A DNA stretch of 30,102 nucleotides from positions 1 through 30,102 of the forward strand of contig CALJMC010000024.1 of the NCBI GenBank assembly GCA_937982385.1, read 5' to 3'. The translations under genes and the position numbers were made by a program. The notes beneath the pieces were generated by a model, which was given only the letters and a program-made list of their open reading frames with translations, was not told the origin of the DNA and searched no databases. Below are positions 5,739 to 14,590 of this stretch, piece by piece; the stretch's first letter is position 1, and each line of letters begins with the position of its first letter. Source of the DNA: an uncultured Rickettsiales bacterium. Its GTDB lineage: Bacteria > Pseudomonadota > Alphaproteobacteria > Rickettsiales > UBA998.

Positions 5739-7079
5739 TTACGAGTGTTGCTTATAGTCTAAACTGGGTTGAAATGGCTCAGGGGATTGAGTGCTCATTT
5801 GATGCATGAAGCGGATAATATCCTCATCAACTCTGATATCGCTGGCTTTGAGAGGGCAGACGAGCTTTACGCCGTTTAATGTACGGCATCGGCTGAGCGC
5901 GACATAAGCCTGTCCCTTGGTAAACGCACCATTGCCCAAGTTAATCACCACATTGTCAAAGGTTTTTCCTTGGCTTTTATGGATGGTGATCGCCCAAGCG
6001 AGCTGCAGCGGAAATTGCTCATAACTGCCAACGACTACTTCCGCCATTTTCTCAGTCTTTGCATCATATTCATAGCGAATCGCCTCCCATTTTTGACGCT
6101 CCACCACATATTCGTCGCTCTCAACACGCACGGTAATCTTTTGGTCTGCCAGCTTGGTGACTTCACCAACGGTGCCATTGACCCAGCGTTTGTCTTTGTC
6201 ATTCTTTGAGAACATGACATGGGCACCGACTTTTAATTCCAAATCGAGCGGCGCGGGTAACTTCTCATTCTCTTTAGCAAAGCTGCCTTTTGCTGCACCA
6301 TCATAATTGTGTGAAGGTGTGCTGAGGGCATCTAGTTTATTGAGGTTGTTATAATCTGCTACTCTGTTGGTGGTGGTTAGAATGATGGCATCAGAGGCTT
6401 CTGCATCGGGTTTGCAGTGATGCGCATTGAACCAGTTGAGCATTTTGGGGGTGAGGGTGTTTTCACGCAAATGGTTCAAAAAGCGAATGAAGGCATCATC
6501 GGATTGTCTGAAAATCTGGGTCAGTTCTAAAAATTGAAAATGGATGTTGGCGAAGCTTTTTGCTTCGAAGAAATAGGGCGAGGAATAATAGGAATGAAAT
6601 GCCTCTTTCTCGTGATGCGTCAAAACGGGCGGCAGCTGATATAAGTCACCAATTAAACAAAGCTGCACGCCTCCAAGCGGGTGCCCAGAATCTTTGCCGT
6701 TAAGTGTGAGGAAGGTGCAAATGGCGTCCATCATATCGGCGCGCACCATCGAAATTTCATCAATAACTAGAATATCGACAGCCTTATAGAGCTTGCGCAA
6801 ATCTTTACGCGCATGGCGCGGTGCATCAGGATCCATAAACCCTGGGCGAAACCCGAAAAAAGAATGAATCGTCTGCCCTTTAACATTAATCGCCGCAACC
6901 CCTGTGGGCGCAACAACAGCAATATTTTTTTCAGTATTATTTCTAAAATAATCGAGAAAAGTGGATTTTCCTGTCCCCGCCTTGCCAGTCAGAAATACAT
7001 GTGCATCAGAATGTTCCAACAGCTCATAGGCGTTTTTATATTCATCCGTGAAAGTGATGTTCTGTGGGCTGTTATCCAT
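5739..7079 (-). CDS. Pif1-family (SF1B, RecD-like) DNA helicase, 446 aa
   Basis: GKAGTGKS, APTGVAAINVKGQTIHSFF, DEISMV, GDLYQLPPV, LTQIFRQ, QFPLQLAWAITIHKSQGKTF, GQAYVALSR. Start moved to ATG 7079, which overlaps the lptG stop by 8 nt; the ORF-track extension to 7181 lies inside lptG. Confidence 0.9.
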   Translation of the reverse strand: MDNSPQNITFTDEYKNAYELLEHSDAHVFLTGKAGTGKSTFLDYFRNNTEKNIAVVAPTGVAAINVKGQTIHSFFGFRPGFMDPDAPRHARKDLRKLYKAVDILVIDEISMVRADMMDAICTFLTLNGKDSGHPLGGVQLCLIGDLYQLPPVLTHHEKEAFHSYYSSPYFFEAKSFANIHFQFLELTQIFRQSDDAFIRFLNHLRENTLTPKMLNWFNAHHCKPDAEASDAIILTTTNRVADYNNLNKLDALSTPSHNYDGAAKGSFAKENEKLPAPLDLELKVGAHVMFSKNDKDKRWVNGTVGEVTKLADQKITVRVESDEYVVERQKWEAIRYEYDAKTEKMAEVVVGSYEQFPLQLAWAITIHKSQGKTFDNVVINLGNGAFTKGQAYVALSRCRTLNGVKLVCPLKASDIRVDEDIIRFMHQMSTQSPEPFQPSLDYKQHS

Positions 7080-8208
7080 CTTCAAGCTGCAATAAAAGTG
7101 CGGTGCCAGCGATGAGAGCCATGACGGGTGGCGTCCAGCTTGCAAGCATAACTGGAAGCCCGCCTGAATAGCCAAATGCATGAAAAATATTGAGCAAGAA
7201 ATTCATCATGAACCCAACCGCAACACCGCTAATGATGAGCACACTCACGCCACCTCTGCGATGCTGCCGCAGTGAGAAAATAGCTGCGACAAGTACCATG
7301 CCTGCGAGCAGCAAGGGTGACGCGAACATCGCATGCCAATGGACTTTGTGACGCAGCGCTGAGAAGCCTGCATTTTCCAACGTGTTGATGAACCCAGTCA
7401 GCTGCCAAAAAGATAAGGTGGAGGGATCAGCAAAGCTATCTTGAATTTGCGAGAGATTCAAATCTGTCGCTAGTGTGTAGCGCGATTGTGTCGAAGGCGC
7501 GCCTCCCACTCTGGTGAGCGCAATATTTTCCAGTTGCCATAAGCCATCACGCAGATAGCCTCGTTCTGCGTCAATGCGCCCGATAAACTGATTGTCCATA
7601 TCATAGCTAAACACAGTCACTTCTTGCAACACCATCTCACCTTCATGGCTGATGCGTGAGGCATGTAAAATATACTCCCGCATTTGGCTGCCGAAAATTT
7701 CAGTAATCCCGGAACTTTCATTGCTTTGGCGTAGCCACAAACCCGATGAAGAGACGGTCAATTGACTGGATTTTCCTGCAATATAGCGGTCTTCTAGCAT
7801 TTCATAACGCGCGGTGAGGGCGGATGATACAGGGTTGAATACGAGCAGCACAAATATACCAATCAGGAATGCAAACGCACATAATGGGGTGAGAAATTGC
7901 CACACTGAAATGCCAGAGGCACGCGCAATAACGAGTTCTTGTGAGCGGGTGAGCTTAGTGAGCGTCATCATCGCGCCAATCAAAATGCCATAAGGCAAGA
8001 TTTCTTCCATCATGTTTGGGAGTTTGAGAAATGCCATTTCAACGACCGTTGTAAAACTGACATCTGCCTTGTTGGAAGTGCGACGAATCAGTTCGACAAA
8101 GTCAATCATACCAACCACGGATAACACCACACCAAGCGCTATCGCAACGGAGCTGAGGAAATGTTTGCCGATATACCATGAGAAAGTAAGAGGGAATTTC
8201 ATATTCAT
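7072..8208 (-). CDS. lptG: LPS export ABC transporter permease LptG
   Basis: YjgP/YjgQ layout, SQELVIARASGISVWQ, GLWLR, LSFWQL, six TM segments. ATG 8208 overlaps the lptF TGA (ATGA). Confidence 0.92.
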   Translation of the reverse strand: MNMKFPLTFSWYIGKHFLSSVAIALGVVLSVVGMIDFVELIRRTSNKADVSFTTVVEMAFLKLPNMMEEILPYGILIGAMMTLTKLTRSQELVIARASGISVWQFLTPLCAFAFLIGIFVLLVFNPVSSALTARYEMLEDRYIAGKSSQLTVSSSGLWLRQSNESSGITEIFGSQMREYILHASRISHEGEMVLQEVTVFSYDMDNQFIGRIDAERGYLRDGLWQLENIALTRVGGAPSTQSRYTLATDLNLSQIQDSFADPSTLSFWQLTGFINTLENAGFSALRHKVHWHAMFASPLLLAGMVLVAAIFSLRQHRRGGVSVLIISGVAVGFMMNFLLNIFHAFGYSGGLPVMLASWTPPVMALIAGTALLLQLEDG

Positions 8209-9332
8209 ACGCTCCCTGATGCAGCGGGGATGTCCTGCTGATTTCTTGGCGTCATGGCGCGTTCTTTGATCAGGATGGTGAAGCATAGCGCAATCACACC
8301 AAGCGACAAAAGATAGATGGCGGGTACAAGTTCGGGCTGTTTTACCATCGCATTGGCCACGCCAAACATCGCAATGACAAACATGATGGCGCTGAGTGAT
8401 ATTTTCGCAGTAAGCTTCCAACTGCTGCGACGATTAAATTCGCTTTTAAGCAAAGCTGTCGCGGCGAGCAACCCTAGTGCGAGTGATACGAGCGGCCATG
8501 TCAGGCGTTGATGGGCTTGCGCGAGCAATGCGTTCTTTTTTCCTGAGTCAGTATGATTGGCTGGGTCGAAGAGTTCATGAATCAAATATTCATCTTCCCC
8601 TTTTTTGCGTTTGCCTGCCCGATTGGTGTAGAAGCTTAAATCCAAACCATAGCTATCAAAATGCAACCAACTCATTTGCCCCTTCGCATTGCGTTCTTGT
8701 CGCAAGCCTTTCGTCAACTGAAAGCGCGGCCCTTTGGAGGTTTGAATAAGTTTTCCCTCATCTGCCATCATGGTGGTGTTCATGCCTTTGAGGCGATTAT
8801 CATGTACCAATATTCCCTTCATATTTCCTGCCTCATCACGCTCACGCACAAATACAGTTAATCCTGGAATTGGGCTATTAAACACTTCCTCTTGCAGTAA
8901 CACAGAGGAATAATTATCACGCAAAAAATTCTGCGTTTCTTTAAACTGATGCTTGGCAATCGGCATAATATAGAAGGCAATAAGCGCAACCAACGCAGTG
9001 ACGGTTACTCCCGTTAGTATGGCTGGGCGGGCAAGCTGTATACTGCTCAACCCTGATGCTTTAAGCACTACCAGCTCGCTATCAGAAGCGAGTTTTTGAT
9101 AGGCAAACATCACCCCAATAAAGAGCGATACGGGCAGTACCACCATCAATAATGATGGCAAAAGCAACATCGCTAGATACATAAAATCACCAATCGACAA
9201 CCCGCGATTGACGATAAAATCAATATAGCGAAGGGCCTGCGTCAACCAGATGATGCTCGTCAGGCACAGTGTGACGAGCAGCGTTGGCCAACCAATCAAT
9301 TTTACCATATAGAGGTTGTATCGTTTGAACAC
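8205..9332 (-). CDS. lptF: LPS export ABC transporter permease LptF
   Basis: WLTQALRYIDFIVNRG, DSELVVLKASGLS, LLQEEVFN, HQRLTWPL. GTG start; divergent from pepA as usual in proteobacteria. Confidence 0.92.
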   Translation of the reverse strand: MFKRYNLYMVKLIGWPTLLVTLCLTSIIWLTQALRYIDFIVNRGLSIGDFMYLAMLLLPSLLMVVLPVSLFIGVMFAYQKLASDSELVVLKASGLSSIQLARPAILTGVTVTALVALIAFYIMPIAKHQFKETQNFLRDNYSSVLLQEEVFNSPIPGLTVFVRERDEAGNMKGILVHDNRLKGMNTTMMADEGKLIQTSKGPRFQLTKGLRQERNAKGQMSWLHFDSYGLDLSFYTNRAGKRKKGEDEYLIHELFDPANHTDSGKKNALLAQAHQRLTWPLVSLALGLLAATALLKSEFNRRSSWKLTAKISLSAIMFVIAMFGVANAMVKQPELVPAIYLLSLGVIALCFTILIKERAMTPRNQQDIPAASGSV

Positions 9333-9364: not shown

Positions 9365-9428
9365 CCCGTGCCAGCGCATGGGCGCCGACCATTCGGCGGA
9401 TTAAAATTTGTATGATTTTAATCTTAAA
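9365..9428. repeat. Triple-hairpin intergenic repeat, copy 1
   Basis: 9383-9428 matches 23998-24043 at 44/46 nt. Hairpins: CCCGTGC-cagc-GCATGGG (one G-T pair), CGCCGA-ccat-TCGGCG, GATTAAAAT-ttgtatg-ATTTTAATC. Confidence 0.9.
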
Positions 9429-9458
9429 ACATTATTGAACACTACAGAAAGGTTCCCC

Positions 9459-10976
9459 ATGACACCAGTATTTTCCGCCCTAGGCACCCAGAAAAAAGAA
9501 GCAGCCACCGCAGGCAAGGATGTTGCCAAAGCGTTTTTGGTCACTGACGCGAAGAAACTATCCGCATCAGCAAACGAACTCGATAAAATTGCAGCTGGGT
9601 TGATTAAGAAAGCCATCACGACAGGAAAATTCGAGGGTAAAAAGGGACAGGTACTTCATTTCGTGGCGCCAGAGGGCTGTGGTGCAGATCATATTTTAGT
9701 TGGCGGTTTGGGTGCAACAAAAGACATCACGACACTCACCTATGAAGAAATTGGTGGTGCATTCGTACAAAAATCTAATGCGCTGGGCGTCAAAATATTG
9801 GAAGTGCGTGTTGATGATGCAGCTGGCAAAAAGATTGATGCAGGCGAAGCGGAAGCGCATATCGGATTGGGCGCGGCGCTAAAATCCTATCGTTTCGACA
9901 AATATTTTACCAAGGAGGAGGCAAAAGACAAGCCAACCTTGGCGAAAATTAAGGTTCTTACGGTTGATGTAGCTAAAGCGCAAAAAGCCTACGGGCCGCT
10001 GGACGCGCTCTATCAAGGGTCGGTTCTTACGCGCAATGTCGTGACCGAGCCGGGCAACATTATTCACCCTGAGTCACTTGCGAACGTGTGTAAAGAGCTG
10101 TCAAAAGATGGCCTCAAAGTTGAGGTGCTCGGTGAAAAAGCAATGGAAAAACTTGGCATGGGCTCACTTCTCAGCGTGGGTGATGGTTCGCAGCGCGAAT
10201 CACAGCTTGTGGTGATGCAGTGGAATGGCGGCAAAAAAGATGACAAGCCGCTTGCATTTATCGGCAAAGGTGTGACCTTCGATACAGGTGGTATCAGCAT
10301 CAAGCCAGCTGGCGGTATGGAAGAAATGAAATGGGATATGGGTGGCTCAGGTACTGTCATTGGTCTCATGAAAACCTTAGCCCTCCGTAAAGCTAATGTA
10401 AATGTGGTTGGTGTTGTTGGCTTGGTTGAAAATATGCCAGATGGCAAGGCAACCCGCCCAGGTGATGTGGTGACGTCGATGTCGGGTCAAACCATTGAAG
10501 TGTTGAATACCGATGCTGAGGGTCGTCTTGTGCTCGCTGATGCCCTGTGGTACACGCAAGATCGCTTCAAACCCGAATTCATGATTGATCTCGCCACTCT
10601 TACAGGTGCAATTATCGTGTCACTCGGCAATGAACATGCAGGATTGTTCTCTAATGATGATAAAATCTCTGAGCGCCTTGTGAAGCTCGGCCAGACAACA
10701 GGTGAGAAGACATGGCGCTTCCCATTGAGCGATGCCTATAACAAGCAAATCGACTCCCCAATTGCAGATATGCAAAATATTGGAAATGCCAAAGGCGCGG
10801 GTTCTATCACCGCTGCACAGTTCCTTCAACGTTTTGTGAATGACACCCCGTGGGTGCATCTTGACATTGCAGGCACTGCATGGACCAAAGAAGACAAGCC
10901 AACCTGCTCAAAAGGTGCGACTGCCTTCGGTGTGAAACTGCTCAATGAATTTGTATCAAAACATTACGAAAAATAA
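9459..10976 (+). CDS. pepA: Leucyl aminopeptidase (M17)
   Basis: GKGVTFDTGGISIK, MKWDMGG, NTDAEGRLVLADAL, DLATLTGA, HLDIAGT. ATG 9459 with GAAAGG upstream is preferred over TTG 9408, which lies inside the repeat. Confidence 0.96.
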   Translation: MTPVFSALGTQKKEAATAGKDVAKAFLVTDAKKLSASANELDKIAAGLIKKAITTGKFEGKKGQVLHFVAPEGCGADHILVGGLGATKDITTLTYEEIGGAFVQKSNALGVKILEVRVDDAAGKKIDAGEAEAHIGLGAALKSYRFDKYFTKEEAKDKPTLAKIKVLTVDVAKAQKAYGPLDALYQGSVLTRNVVTEPGNIIHPESLANVCKELSKDGLKVEVLGEKAMEKLGMGSLLSVGDGSQRESQLVVMQWNGGKKDDKPLAFIGKGVTFDTGGISIKPAGGMEEMKWDMGGSGTVIGLMKTLALRKANVNVVGVVGLVENMPDGKATRPGDVVTSMSGQTIEVLNTDAEGRLVLADALWYTQDRFKPEFMIDLATLTGAIIVSLGNEHAGLFSNDDKISERLVKLGQTTGEKTWRFPLSDAYNKQIDSPIADMQNIGNAKGAGSITAAQFLQRFVNDTPWVHLDIAGTAWTKEDKPTCSKGATAFGVKLLNEFVSKHYEK

Positions 10977-10998
10977 CGCATCTATAAGGAATAAAACC

Positions 10999-11076
10999 AT
11001 GACTAAAATTACCCTAGCACTCACAAGCCTCCTCATCCTCACTGCCTGCGATATACCGTTCATTCCGTTTATTTAA
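10999..11076 (+). CDS. 25-aa micro-lipoprotein MTKITLALTSLLILTACDIPFIPFI (below the ORF-track cutoff)
   Basis: AAGGA SD at 10986-10990, 8 nt before the ATG. Basic n-region, hydrophobic h-region, lipobox LTAC, TAA at 11074-11076. Confidence 0.7.
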   Translation: MTKITLALTSLLILTACDIPFIPFI

Positions 11077-11106
11077 AAAATATTTTAATATAGCGGTTAT
11101 TTTCAC

Positions 11107-11135
11107 TTGACTTGGGGCGGTCAAATGTGGATATT
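11107..11135 (+). promoter_or_regulatory. sigma70 promoter for tRNA-Glu
   Basis: TTGACT-N17-GATATT, 38 nt upstream of the tRNA. Confidence 0.55.
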
Positions 11136-11173
11136 GCCAATTCGCTTTTTAAGCGAGTCATTCTTGACAGAGT

Positions 11174-11248
11174 GGCCCCTTCGTCTAGCGGTTAGGACGC
11201 GGCCCTTTCACGGCTGAAACACGAGTTCAATTCTCGTAGGGGTCACCA
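11174..11248 (+). tRNA. tRNA-Glu (anticodon TTC), 75 nt, encoded CCA
   Basis: Acceptor stem GGCCCCT/AGGGGTC, anticodon arm CGGCC-CT-TTC-AC-GGCTG, T-loop GTTCAATT, 3' ACCA. Confidence 0.97.
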
Positions 11249-11360
11249 TTTTACTCTTCTCATATCATCCCATAGCAGTAGAATCTACGCAGATTCGTGA
11301 TCGTTCGTATCCAGAAATGTCCAATAGGGTTTTCATTTGCGGGTATCTATTTATCGCGTT

Positions 11361-13133: not shown

Positions 13134-14495
13134 TTAAAATTTATGCGCACCATGAGCACCAAGACTCATGATATATTGCAAGATAACCTGATCATCATCC
13201 TGTGAGTTTGTTAATTCCTCGCGGTTATATTGCACACGCACACGGCTAAATTCGCTGTTTGTCCAGTCTAGCATGGCTGCATAAGCGATAGGGTCATGTC
13301 CCTCAGAATCAAGAGCGCTACCGATGAGTCCTGTCGGCGTATCGGGTGCATCAAGCTGACTATAGCGCGCACCTACGCGCCACTGAGGCGCAAATTTATA
13401 GGCTGCTTGGGCATACCACCCGCTAGAGGAGTCATCAAAATTGACGACACCCGTGCCAGCATCAGTATCTTCATAAGTACCGTCTTCATCGCGCCAGAAA
13501 TATTCCCCCTGAAGGATAACTTCTTGCTGACGTGCATTGCCTGTGGGCGCCCATGTGTAGCGCATGTCGGCAACATATAAATCGCTGTCGCCTGTGAATG
13601 TCACTGCATCTTCATTGCTTGCGCGACCACCCGAAGCTTCGCCTGAAAGCACAGAGGCACCTAAACGCCAGCTTTGGTTGCTACCGATATCATCGCCTAT
13701 GCGAGCAAACGCCGTCCATGCGCCAATGCCTTCGCCATCACTACCACCAAGCGGGAAATCATCGCCACGGAACAAGCCGCCCCCAATTTCTGCATAGATG
13801 TCTGTAGGCAGCACATAGGAAACCTCTGCACCATCATCGTTGAAAGCGCCATCTAGGAACACGCGATAAGGCAGTGGGCGATCTGCAAAATCATCCGCAT
13901 GGCTGTGATGTTCATTCAAATATCCTAGCGTCCAAAACGCACGACCTGCCTTGATGCTCATGCCACTCGGCAAGCCCATCCCGGGAAGTGTTTGAATGAA
14001 GGCTTCCTCAAGCTCGACCTCTGTTGAGCCTTCATGCTCCGCGATGGCTGCGGTGGTGCTACCGAAGAATTTATCATCCACATTGGCTGAAAAGTTCAAC
14101 TCAGTATGGTCTACGGCAAAGCCTTCACGGCCACGCTCACCTTCTTCTCCCACGCCGAAACCAGCGACATCGCCTTCATCGGAAGAGTAGTTGCGATATT
14201 GCCCATTAAGAATCACACCAATGGATGGATTGAAGCTGTTATCCTTTACCGCGCGTCGTGCTGTGGCCGGCGTTGCGGGTGCGGGTGCTGCTGCGGTTGC
14301 TGATGTTTTTGCTTGGGTGCTCTCCACCTTGTTGAGTTTAGATTCAAGCTCGACAATGCGTCCCTCATAGGCTTGTTTCATGTTTTGAATCTCTGCACGC
14401 AGTGCATCAATGTCATTGGGTGATGCAGCGAATGCAGAATTGCTAGATAACAGGCCGATAAATGCGACAGACGTCGCGAGTGCAGTTTTTAACAT
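13134..14495 (-). CDS. Outer-membrane beta-barrel protein associated with metal ABC loci, 453 aa
   Basis: Signal peptide, coiled coil, Ala/Pro linker, FNPSIGVILNG, ELEEAF, GYLNEHHSHADDFADRPL, EFSRVRVQY, terminal GAHGAHKF. Start ATG 14495 with AGGAGA SD. Confidence 0.8.
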   Translation of the reverse strand: MLKTALATSVAFIGLLSSNSAFAASPNDIDALRAEIQNMKQAYEGRIVELESKLNKVESTQAKTSATAAAPAPATPATARRAVKDNSFNPSIGVILNGQYRNYSSDEGDVAGFGVGEEGERGREGFAVDHTELNFSANVDDKFFGSTTAAIAEHEGSTEVELEEAFIQTLPGMGLPSGMSIKAGRAFWTLGYLNEHHSHADDFADRPLPYRVFLDGAFNDDGAEVSYVLPTDIYAEIGGGLFRGDDFPLGGSDGEGIGAWTAFARIGDDIGSNQSWRLGASVLSGEASGGRASNEDAVTFTGDSDLYVADMRYTWAPTGNARQQEVILQGEYFWRDEDGTYEDTDAGTGVVNFDDSSSGWYAQAAYKFAPQWRVGARYSQLDAPDTPTGLIGSALDSEGHDPIAYAAMLDWTNSEFSRVRVQYNREELTNSQDDDQVILQYIMSLGAHGAHKF

Positions 14496-14502
14496 AAGTG
14501 TA

Positions 14503-14590
14503 TCTCCTAAATACGATATGGGATCGCGCTTGCGAAAATCACAAGGCGACATATAAAAATAATGATAAGTTAGTTTGGTAGCTTAGGAGA
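14503..14590 (-). promoter_or_regulatory. SD/anti-SD pairing between the leader 3' end and the barrel-gene RBS
   Basis: mRNA TCTCCTAA (14590-14583) is the exact complement of TTAGGAGA (14510-14503). An inner hairpin TCGC-CTTGTGA-ttt-TCGCAAG-C-GCGA lies at about 14524-14549. Confidence 0.7.

What the first reader, a model, noticed from the sequence alone, without database searches (positions are those of the whole stretch)
10986..11076. 25-codon micro-lipoprotein whose mature form would be a 9-residue lipopeptide
A strong SD, a type II signal peptide and the lipobox LTA|C leave only CDIPFIPFI, an internally repeated (IPF)2 hydrophobic peptide with Asp at +2 (the Lol-avoidance residue in E. coli). 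This is much shorter than entericidins or LptM/YifL. It lies 22 nt after pepA, next to the lpt operon, so it could be an envelope-assembly cofactor, a membrane-active toxin/antitoxin peptide or a ribosomally made lipopeptide signal (inference).
Basis: partly seen in the sequence, partly recalled or inferred. Interest (0 to 1): 0.6.

Follow-up and report, generated by a model that had tools for sequence, protein, structure and literature searches.

The report
Conserved gene for lipid-anchored nonapeptide
A 25-codon gene that annotation pipelines skip is real: it belongs to an unnamed family, conserved in over a hundred alphaproteobacterial species, that should yield a fat-anchored peptide only nine residues long whose job in the cell envelope is still unknown.

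Summary
The ORF is there as described: window 10999-11076 (+), MTKITLALTSLLILTAC|DIPFIPFI, with an AAGGA ribosome-binding site 7 nt upstream, 22 nt after pepA. Alone it is not beyond chance, since 7 comparable ORFs occur in this 1.55-Mb genome. Conservation settles it. The same micro-gene occurs in 18 of 401 genomes of the window's own order of small-genome Alphaproteobacteria. It also occurs in about 25 of 151 Rhodobacteraceae genera and in more than 110 species-level genomes overall.

Family signature: signal peptide, lipobox L-[AST]-[AG]-C, 0-4 spacer residues, then D-[VI]-P-[FL]-[VI]-P-x-I-stop. Third codon positions vary freely and all three stop codons are used, so selection acts on the peptide. 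No Pfam or NCBIfam model and no paper covers it. Databases hold about 20 copies, unnamed or "hypothetical".

Gene neighbours differ between lineages, so the pepA/lpt position here is incidental. It is not LptM and co-occurs with LptM. Asp is fixed relative to the C-terminus, not to Cys, which weakens the Lol-avoidance reading.

Best guess (inferred): a triacylated nonapeptide acting as a membrane-tethered ligand, as the nine-residue lipidated N-terminus of E. coli LptM does. This scan found other ultra-short lipoprotein families before on other DNA, but not this one.

The parts
10987..10991 (+). Shine-Dalgarno core AAGGA, 7 nt before the start codon
   Evidence: Read directly. 94 of 111 family members have a 4-mer SD core within -18..-4.
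10999..11076 (+). Micro-lipoprotein gene: 25 codons plus TAA
   Evidence: Family membership shown.
10999..11046 (+). Signal peptide MTKITLALTSLLILTA: n-region MTK, an 11-residue hydrophobic core, and the first three lipobox residues
   Evidence: The peptide passes the PS51257-like rule. Pfam LPAM_1 scores 17.4 bits, E 0.0059, below its cut-off of 20. Cleavage before Cys17 is inferred.
11038..11049 (+). Lipobox L-T-A-C
   Evidence: In the family, position -3 is Leu in 106/110, -2 is A/T/S, and -1 is A/G. None of these positions was part of the search pattern.
11047..11073 (+). Predicted mature lipopeptide CDIPFIPFI. Family motif: C-(0-4 spacer residues)-D-[VI]-P-[FL]-[VI]-P-x-I-COOH
   Evidence: C17, D18, P20, P23 and I25 are invariant in alignments A1 and A3. 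The stop codon always follows the Ile directly, and all three stop codons are used.
9408..10976 (+). pepA (leucyl aminopeptidase), the upstream co-oriented gene. The micro-gene is probably co-transcribed with it. Context only.
   Evidence: NF002077 scores 691 bits. No promoter-like or terminator-like site lies in the 22-nt gap. Co-transcription is inferred.
11107..11135 (+). Promoter-like site downstream of the micro-gene, probably serving tRNA-Glu. Context only.
   Evidence: TTGACT-17-GATATT, 9 of 12 positions matched. This is a consensus match only.
11174..11248 (+). tRNA-Glu(UUC). It sits where relatives carry holC. Context only.

Best explanation
Window 10999-11076 is a real protein-coding gene for a 25-residue prolipoprotein. 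It belongs to an unnamed, almost never annotated family of single-copy, stand-alone genes of 24-31 codons.

Family definition: M-[KR]-containing n-region, a hydrophobic core of about 10 residues, lipobox L-[AST]-[AG]-C, 0-4 hydrophobic spacer residues, then D-[VI]-P-[FL]-[VI]-P-[LGFM]-I, followed at once by a stop codon.

Inferred pathway:
- The short precursor inserts post-translationally with its N-terminus inside.
- Lgt adds diacylglycerol to the Cys.
- LspA removes the 16-residue signal peptide.
- Lnt N-acylates the new N-terminus.
- The product is a triacylated nonapeptide at the periplasmic face of a membrane.

Inferred mechanism: the invariant tail acts as a membrane-tethered ligand or minimal accessory subunit. 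Its register is fixed from the free C-terminal Ile. It would dock onto a conserved envelope protein, in the way the nine lipidated N-terminal residues of E. coli LptM are enough to act on LptD. The partner is unknown and is not implied by pepA or lptFG.

My odds:
- Real selected coding gene: about 0.93.
- Processed as an SPII lipoprotein: about 0.8.
- Tethered ligand or subunit, rather than another role: about 0.35.
For: Shown:
1. A single-sequence search of 201 genomes of the own order found eight further 28-36-codon open frames ending ...AC-D[VI]P[FL][VI]P[FLG]I*.
2. The core DNA pattern occurs in 19 of 401 genomes of the order, against 0 of 401 for the reversed control pattern. 18 of the 19 have a lipoprotein signal.
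I expected about 26 chance hits by my own arithmetic.
   - 111 of 117 matches carry ATG, K/R, a hydrophobic run and a lipobox. These give 108 different peptides, and 82 are exactly 24 aa.
   - 105 of 111 pass a strict PS51257-like rule, which only 0.66% of random TGY positions in the same loci pass.
4. Selection is on the peptide.
   - Third codon positions are near saturation.
   - TGA, TAA and TAG are all used.
   - The one position left free in the pattern holds only L/G/F/M (89/11/9/1).
   - The lipobox was not in the pattern and is conserved.
5. No longer or fused forms exist. The longer database entries are over-extended gene calls.
6. No Rfam family or unusual RNA fold overlaps the ORF.

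Precedent for the mechanism: an LptM truncated to C20GLKGPLYF28 keeps its function, and only C20-P30 is ordered on LptD in the cryo-EM structure (bioRxiv 10.1101/2025.01.03.631273).

Inference: near-invariance across two orders points to a conserved target rather than a diversifying signal. Variable spacing after Cys with fixed spacing to the C-terminus fits a tether plus a ligand.
Against: - There is no expression, lipidation or localisation data for any member.
- No conserved neighbour or fused form points to a partner.
- The distribution is patchy: about 5% of the own order and about 17% of Rhodobacteraceae genera. The function is therefore dispensable or lineage-specific.
- A 24-25-residue precursor is unusually short for Sec/SPII handling.
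- Pfam LPAM_1 scores below its cut-off, 17.4 against 20 bits.
- The peptide could act on the bilayer itself rather than on a protein.
- The family set was largely gathered with a pattern that fixes C, D, P, P and I. Their invariance is therefore partly ascertained. The similarity searches found no deviating members, but they are also biased towards look-alikes.
Confidence: 0.55

Rival explanations
1. The lipopeptide acts on the membrane itself or is exported. It would be a structural, lipid-like envelope component, or cargo of outer-membrane vesicles that mediates vesicle docking or host interaction (a TLR2-type lipopeptide), rather than a ligand of an endogenous protein.
For: - The mature part is almost entirely hydrophobic.
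- The small alphaproteobacterial lipoprotein Atu8019 is surface-exposed, is exported on vesicles and mediates docking (PMC7296081).
- Many carriers are eukaryote-associated lineages. They include roseobacters from squid, sponge and algae, and genomes labelled Rickettsiales with an ankyrin-repeat neighbour.
- There is no conserved partner gene.
Against: - Strict invariance of D, P, P and the terminal I, and of the exact stop position, is more than a bulk lipid-like role should need.
- Planktomarina-type free-living pelagic bacteria also carry the gene.
- There are no data on export.
Confidence: 0.2
2. It is a minimal functional replacement for LptM: a lipidated nonapeptide that assists LptD/E maturation. 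This would fit its place beside pepA and lptFG in this window.
For: - The mature part has the same length as the functional LptM fragment.
- G000 and G013, the two carriers in the window's own family, show no LptM-model match, while 11 of the 17 other genomes of that family that were searched do.
- The gene lies about 1.7 kb from lptF in this window.
Against: - The LptM model NF047847 scores 10.4 bits against a cut-off of 27.7, and matches only the signal and lipobox. The CGxKGPL motif is absent.
- In the own order, 9 of 18 carriers also have an LptM-like match, 6 of them at or over the cut-off. The background is 155 of 400, so there is no complementary distribution.
- In Rhodobacteraceae most genera lack both.
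- Proximity to lpt genes is not seen in other members.
Confidence: 0.06
3. It is an entericidin-like membrane-active toxin, or a toxin/antitoxin peptide.
For: It is a very small lipoprotein. Entericidins are the classic small lipoproteins proposed to be bacteriolytic (as cited in PMC7296081).
Against: - There is no match to the entericidin family (Pfam PF08085) at E up to 10.
- Eight residues with two prolines cannot form an amphipathic helix or a pore.
- The gene is single-copy, with no conserved adjacent partner.
- It often sits behind housekeeping genes.
- It is almost absent from the mobile-element collections searched: 1 of 2.9 million viral contigs and no plasmid match.
Confidence: 0.05
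4. It is not a gene. It would be a chance ORF, a remnant of a longer lipoprotein gene, or a conserved DNA/RNA element that merely happens to be open.
For: - Seven comparable ATG+SD lipobox ORFs of 40 aa or fewer occur by chance in this genome.
- The nearest relatives carry holC, not this ORF, after pepA.
- The ORF lies at a synteny break next to a tRNA gene.
Against: - More than 110 genomes carry it, with 108 different peptides and free third codon positions.
- The lipobox and signal character were not in the search pattern and are conserved.
- The stop position is fixed, with three different stop codons.
- The reversed control pattern gives 0 of 401.
- No longer homologues exist.
- There is no RNA family match or stable fold.
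Confidence: 0.03

Closest known systems
LptM (YifL) of E. coli, specifically its lipidated N-terminal nonapeptide C20GLKGPLYF28 (PMC10567701; bioRxiv 10.1101/2025.01.03.631273)
   Same: It is a small Sec/SPII lipoprotein. A mature segment of exactly nine residues beginning with the acylated Cys, with Pro and a hydrophobic or aromatic C-terminal end, is enough for function, by docking with its acyl chains onto an outer-membrane protein. It is the best mechanistic precedent for a working lipo-nonapeptide.
   Different: - Natural LptM has 48 mature residues. The 9-mer is an engineered truncation.
- The motif differs: CGLKGPLYF against CD[VI]P[FL][VI]PxI.
- The LptM models do not reach their cut-offs.
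- Position +2 is Gly rather than Asp.
- This family co-occurs with LptM in at least 6 genomes.
- The free C-terminus is conserved here.
Entericidin A/B family small lipoproteins (Pfam PF08085), e.g. Agrobacterium tumefaciens Atu8019 (PMC7296081)
   Same: These are very small stand-alone lipoproteins of Proteobacteria, including an alphaproteobacterial member. They are poorly understood and membrane-associated.
   Different: - Atu8019 is a 53-aa precursor with a 32-aa mature part. This family has 24-25 and 9.
- There is no sequence match.
- Entericidins are Gly/Ala-rich helical peptides (my own knowledge). This peptide is a Pro-containing extended one.
Other ultra-short lipoprotein families noted earlier by this scan (Dickeya 23/26-codon pair; Serratia/Burkholderia/prophage 24-codon gene ending YYR; Bacteroidota 39-codon Cys-Asp-Cys gene)
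   Same: They share the same architecture: a signal peptide, a lipobox and a mature part of 5-15 residues. They are unannotated and conserved (these are AI notes that I did not check).
   Different: The mature motifs and host taxa are unrelated. Those families have fixed neighbours or regulators. This one is stand-alone, with changing neighbours.
Short natural or synthetic bacterial lipopeptides derived from larger lipoproteins, such as MALP-2, FSL-1 and Pam3Cys peptides (my own knowledge, not checked here)
   Same: The chemical species is the same: an acylated S-diacylglyceryl-Cys carrying a short peptide.
   Different: Those arise by proteolysis of large lipoproteins or by synthesis. Here the short peptide is encoded directly, and its sequence is under strong selection.

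Membership tests
Bacterial Sec/SPII prolipoproteins (PROSITE PS51257 rule; Pfam LPAM_1) | Positively charged n-region, an uncharged hydrophobic core, and a lipobox [LVI][ASTVI][GAS]C with Cys at position 15-35 | tested here: met
   The window peptide has K3, the core ITLALTSLLIL, the lipobox LTAC and Cys17. 105 of 111 family members pass the same rule, against 0.66% of random TGY positions.
Bacterial Sec/SPII prolipoproteins (PROSITE PS51257 rule; Pfam LPAM_1) | Pfam LPAM_1 score at or above the gathering cut-off | tested here: not met
   17.4 bits against a cut-off of 20, E 0.0059. 3 of 9 members match at E up to 10. The model has 18 positions, so this is a weak test.
Bacterial Sec/SPII prolipoproteins (PROSITE PS51257 rule; Pfam LPAM_1) | Diacylglyceryl modification of the Cys by Lgt and cleavage by LspA (globomycin-sensitive) | not testable with these tools
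   This needs labelling or mass spectrometry.
LptM (Pfam PF13627 LptM_cons; NCBIfam NF047847) | HMM score over the curated cut-off, and the conserved C-G-x-K-G-P-L motif after the lipobox | tested here: not met
   NF047847 scores 10.4 bits against a cut-off of 27.7, over positions 1-17 only (the signal). PF13627 reaches E 0.98 in 1 of 9 members. The motif reads CDIPFIPFI.
LptM (Pfam PF13627 LptM_cons; NCBIfam NF047847) | If it were a functional replacement: a distribution complementary to LptM | tested here: not met
   9 of 18 carriers in the own order also have an LptM-like match, 6 of them at or over the cut-off. The background is 155 of 400.
Entericidin A/B (Pfam PF08085) | HMM match, and a mature peptide of about 20-30 residues able to form an amphipathic helix | tested here: not met
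   No match at E up to 10 in any of 9 members. The mature part has 9 residues with two prolines.
Unnamed CD[VI]P[FL][VI]PxI micro-lipoprotein family (defined here) | 24-31 codons; signal plus lipobox; 0-4 spacer residues; D-[VI]-P-[FL]-[VI]-P-x-I directly followed by a stop; single copy | tested here: met
   The window ORF aligns over its full length, with C17, D18, P20, P23 and I25 invariant. It scores E 3.3e-12 against the family profile. There is one copy in G000.

The most novel reading that the evidence does not exclude
A directly gene-encoded triacylated nonapeptide is a new class of minimal envelope cofactor. It would be the first natural lipoprotein whose entire mature part is one docking motif (D-x-P-x-x-P-x-I-COOH), serving an envelope machine other than LptDE in roseobacters and small-genome Alphaproteobacteria. 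It would be one of a wider, overlooked layer of micro-lipoprotein genes below the annotation threshold.
Probability: 0.3. Interest if true: 0.8.

Novelty: new variant of a known kind. Interest (0 to 1): 0.66.

Why it matters
- **Size limit.** It would set the practical lower size limit for a bacterial lipoprotein at nine mature residues. A functional lipo-nonapeptide has so far been shown only as an engineered LptM truncation; this would show that nature encodes one directly.
- **Missed by annotation.** The gene is missed by gene callers. About 20 entries exist among 5.8 billion database proteins, and most have wrong starts. Yet it is conserved in cultivable, genetically tractable marine bacteria such as Ruegeria sp. 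KLH11, Leisingera and Sulfitobacter, so the question can be tested directly.
- **Payoff.** Finding its partner could reveal an unknown step in alphaproteobacterial envelope biology. A natural lipopeptide ligand of an envelope machine is also a possible lead for probes.
- **Annotation practice.** The result argues for adding profile models of micro-lipoproteins to annotation pipelines.

Tried and rejected
1. **Synteny with pepA.** I examined 30 relatives' pepA loci and three closer partial ones. pepA is followed by holC, and none has the micro-ORF there.
2. **Paralogues in G000.** None found by tblastn.
3. **Direct protein-database search.** I used stop-to-stop 45-codon frames instead.
4. **Fused or longer forms.** Only over-extended gene calls turned up.
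5. **A 186-aa lipoprotein with C-ADE-DVPFIPP after its lipobox (G429, G257).** Its family has about 1,100 representatives, and the motif appears in 1 of 150. It is a coincidence, not a Rosetta stone.
6. **An OMP-like 227-aa ORF ending in DVPFVPFI (G094).** It has no Pfam family and occurs once, which equals the number of chance hits expected. I did not pursue it.
7. **LptM displacement.** Not supported.
8. **Conserved neighbours.** None is shared across lineages, and orientation is mixed.
9. **Mobile elements.** One provirus call and no plasmid match.
10. **RNA element.** No Rfam match, and a folding z-score of -0.25.
11. **Literature.** No paper holds the peptide strings or describes such a lipoprotein.

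Full report
**1. The observation.**
ATG is at 10999 and TAA at 11074-11076, and the product is MTKITLALTSLLILTACDIPFIPFI. AAGGA lies 7 nt upstream, and the pepA stop ends 22 nt before the ATG.

The neighbours are lptG and lptF (minus strand), pepA (plus strand) and tRNA-Glu(UUC) at 11174-11248. The genome is a 1.55-Mb, 83%-complete MAG with 46.6% G+C. Its pepA relatives are alphaproteobacterial, and several are labelled 'Rickettsiales bacterium' MAGs.

The peptide meets a PROSITE PS51257-like lipoprotein rule, but so do other ORFs. In this genome 296 six-frame ORFs of 60 aa or fewer meet it, and 7 of them have ATG plus a Shine-Dalgarno core and are 40 aa or shorter. The features alone do not exceed chance.

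**2. Synteny does not help, but similarity does.**
In 30 relatives, and in three closer partial loci, pepA is followed by holC and not by this ORF. In G000, holC is not at this place; there is only a weak tblastn hit on another contig.

A search of 201 genomes of the same order with the 25-aa peptide found eight further open frames of 28-36 codons. All end in ...L[TS]AC-D[VI]P[FL][VI]P[FLG]I-stop. Examples are MKTIIITLSLLALTACDVPFVPFI and MKMTILLALSTLFLTACDVPFIPGI.

**3. Size of the family.**
- *Species genomes.* I scanned one genome from each of 185,579 species with a degenerate DNA pattern for C-D-[VI]-P-[FL]-[VI]-P-x-I-stop.
My arithmetic predicts about 26 chance hits in the whole collection.
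  - Of 117 matches with a true stop, 111 carry a start codon, K/R, a hydrophobic run and a lipobox directly upstream. They give 108 different peptides, and 82 are exactly 24 aa, that is 15 signal plus 9 mature residues.
  - 105 of the 111 pass the strict lipoprotein rule. Only 0.66% of random TGY positions in the same loci do.
- *Hosts.* Most are Rhodobacteraceae: Ruegeria, Sulfitobacter, Leisingera, Tritonibacter, Pseudooceanicola, Planktomarina and strain KLH11. There are also MAGs labelled Rickettsiales or Alphaproteobacteria. A few contigs are labelled Burkholderiaceae, Flavobacteriaceae or Desulfovibrionaceae; I did not verify those labels.
- *Own order.* The core pattern occurs in 19 of 401 genomes, against 0 of 401 for the reversed control. 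18 of the 19 have the signal peptide.
- *Rhodobacteraceae.* With one genome per genus, a family profile gives about 25 full-length matches in 151 genera.
- *Metagenomes.* A scan for the window's own variant added five more members.

**4. Selection acts on the peptide.**
Across 110 distinct DNA versions, third codon positions are near saturation: about 1.0 bit at two-fold sites and 1.45-1.77 bits at four-fold sites. TGA, TAA and TAG all occur at the same stop position.

The one codon left free in the search pattern encodes only L, G, F or M (89/11/9/1). The lipobox was not in the pattern, yet it is L (106/110)-[A/T/S]-[A/G]. An SD core precedes 94 of 111 starts.

No Rfam family overlaps the ORF, and the region folds no better than shuffled sequence, with a z-score of -0.25. 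Chance ORF, gene remnant and nucleic-acid element are thereby excluded.

**5. Anatomy of the family.**
C, D, P, P and the terminal I are invariant. Part of this invariance is ascertained by the search pattern. The similarity-based searches found no deviating members.

Between Cys and Asp there may be 0-4 hydrophobic residues: C-L-D, C-I-D, C-II-D, C-SF-D, C-IPFV-D and CC-D. The distance from Asp to the C-terminus never changes. Asp is therefore part of the peptide motif, not a '+2 sorting residue'. In G000's crude lipoprotein set, Asp at +2 is rare, at 4 of 101 including false positives.

**6. Context.**
Neighbours differ between lineages:
- pepA (this window);
- carB about 100 nt upstream in Ruegeria-type genomes (33 loci);
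- an mscS-like gene and an enoyl-CoA hydratase in Sulfitobacter;
- aldehyde dehydrogenase, yggU-rnd, bipA, nadD, a sulfotransferase and an ankyrin-repeat gene in the window's order.

Orientation relative to neighbours is mixed. In E. coli, the arrangement of lptFG divergent from pepA-holC is the standard map order (established knowledge). Nearness to lpt in this window therefore says nothing about the micro-gene. No promoter-like site lies between pepA and the ORF, so co-transcription with pepA is likely (inference).

**7. Is it known?**
- Neither Pfam nor NCBIfam has a model for it. Only generic lipobox models respond, and they stay below their cut-offs.
- A profile search of 5.8 billion proteins returned 17 entries of 24-79 aa and 4 longer ones. 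Four are correct unnamed calls of 24-25 aa. The rest are over-extended and are unnamed or called 'hypothetical protein'.
- No paper in the library holds the peptide strings, and keyword searches found nothing relevant.
- Earlier notes of this scan describe other ultra-short lipoprotein families on other DNA, but not this one.

**8. Mechanism.**
What is shown is a conserved Sec/SPII-type precursor. The processing steps (Lgt, LspA, Lnt) and the final triacyl-nonapeptide are inferred.

The best precedent is LptM. A variant truncated to its first nine mature residues still supports LptD maturation, and only those residues are ordered on LptD in the cryo-EM structure (background). One of the scan's earlier notes pointed me to this paper, and I read the passage myself.

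I therefore favour a membrane-tethered ligand or minimal subunit whose free C-terminal Ile and fixed Asp-to-end register are read by a conserved envelope protein.

It is not LptM itself, and not a replacement for it:
- the LptM models fail;
- 9 of 18 carriers in the order also have an LptM-like gene, against a background of 155 of 400;
- most Rhodobacteraceae genera have neither gene.

An entericidin-like toxin is unlikely. There is no family match, no helix-forming length and no partner gene, and the gene is almost absent from the phage and plasmid collections. A lipid-like, vesicle or host-directed role remains a serious rival, with Atu8019 as precedent.

**9. Leads that failed.**
- A 186-aa lipoprotein with DVPFIPP after its lipobox looked like a fused form. 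The motif is not conserved in its large family, appearing in 1 of 150 members.
- A single OMP-like ORF ending in DVPFVPFI equals the number of chance hits expected.

**10. Verdict.**
Its contextual inferences (the lpt link, Asp+2 Lol avoidance, toxin or signal) are not.

The finding is a real and widespread family of directly encoded lipo-nonapeptides that is effectively unannotated. It is a new and extreme variant of the lipoprotein kind. Its function is unknown, but it can be tested in cultivable roseobacters.

Noticed in passing
window 10977-11250: In relatives pepA is followed directly by holC (DNA polymerase III chi). In this genome that slot holds the micro-gene and tRNA-Glu, and holC gives only a weak tblastn hit on another contig (C44:3017-3106, E 0.008). 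This looks like a synteny break next to a tRNA gene.
   Followed up: partly
L216:844-1527 (+) (G094:C14): A 227-aa ORF with a signal-like N-terminus and no Pfam match ends in ...LPDVPFVPFI-stop. That is the family's motif at the C-terminus of a larger, OMP-like protein. It could be the one chance hit expected in 401 genomes, or a hint that the motif is read as a C-terminal tag.
   Followed up: partly
L240, L242, L243, L247, L251, L252, L256 (metagenome contigs, 17-24% G+C): Several very AT-rich contigs share an ORF end ...YT.PNK..I[IM]DIPFIPFI-stop with no lipoprotein signal. This appears to be a different conserved protein tail from one kind of AT-rich organism.
   Followed up: no
L056:1021-1581 (-) (G429:C4), next to hslO (Hsp33): A family of lipoproteins of about 195 aa has no Pfam domain and is widespread: 1,101 representatives at E<=0.001 and 432 at E<=1e-10. 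It has a Pro-rich linker after the lipobox and an F-x-x-x-x-P-I motif.
   Followed up: partly
L217:1539-1841 (+) (G103:C44): In one member of the order, a second lipoprotein gene of about 100 aa starts 11-12 nt after the micro-gene's stop (MKKTLILAALILSSAC...). This is the only case of a lipoprotein neighbour that I saw.
   Followed up: no
L238:11698-11775 (+) (IMGVR_UViG_647533201_000001): The only viral-collection hit is a Ruegeria/KLH11-type copy (MLRLLLLLSLISALAACDVPFVPGI) inside a 48.9-kb predicted provirus. It is probably host DNA within, or at the edge of, the provirus call.
   Followed up: no
window 13134-14552 (-): A 472-aa ORF has no NCBIfam match at E<=0.001.
   Followed up: no
window 7072-8421 and 8205-9332 (-): The longest lptG frame (TTG start) overlaps lptF by 217 nt. 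The LptG model aligns only from residue 80, so the true start is probably downstream.
   Followed up: no
L128 and L122 (contigs labelled Burkholderiaceae MAG and Pseudomonadota MAG): Both have family members with a double Cys (…LLTAC-C-D[IV]PL[IV]PFI) in contigs not labelled Alphaproteobacteria. This could be lateral transfer or mis-binning.
   Followed up: no
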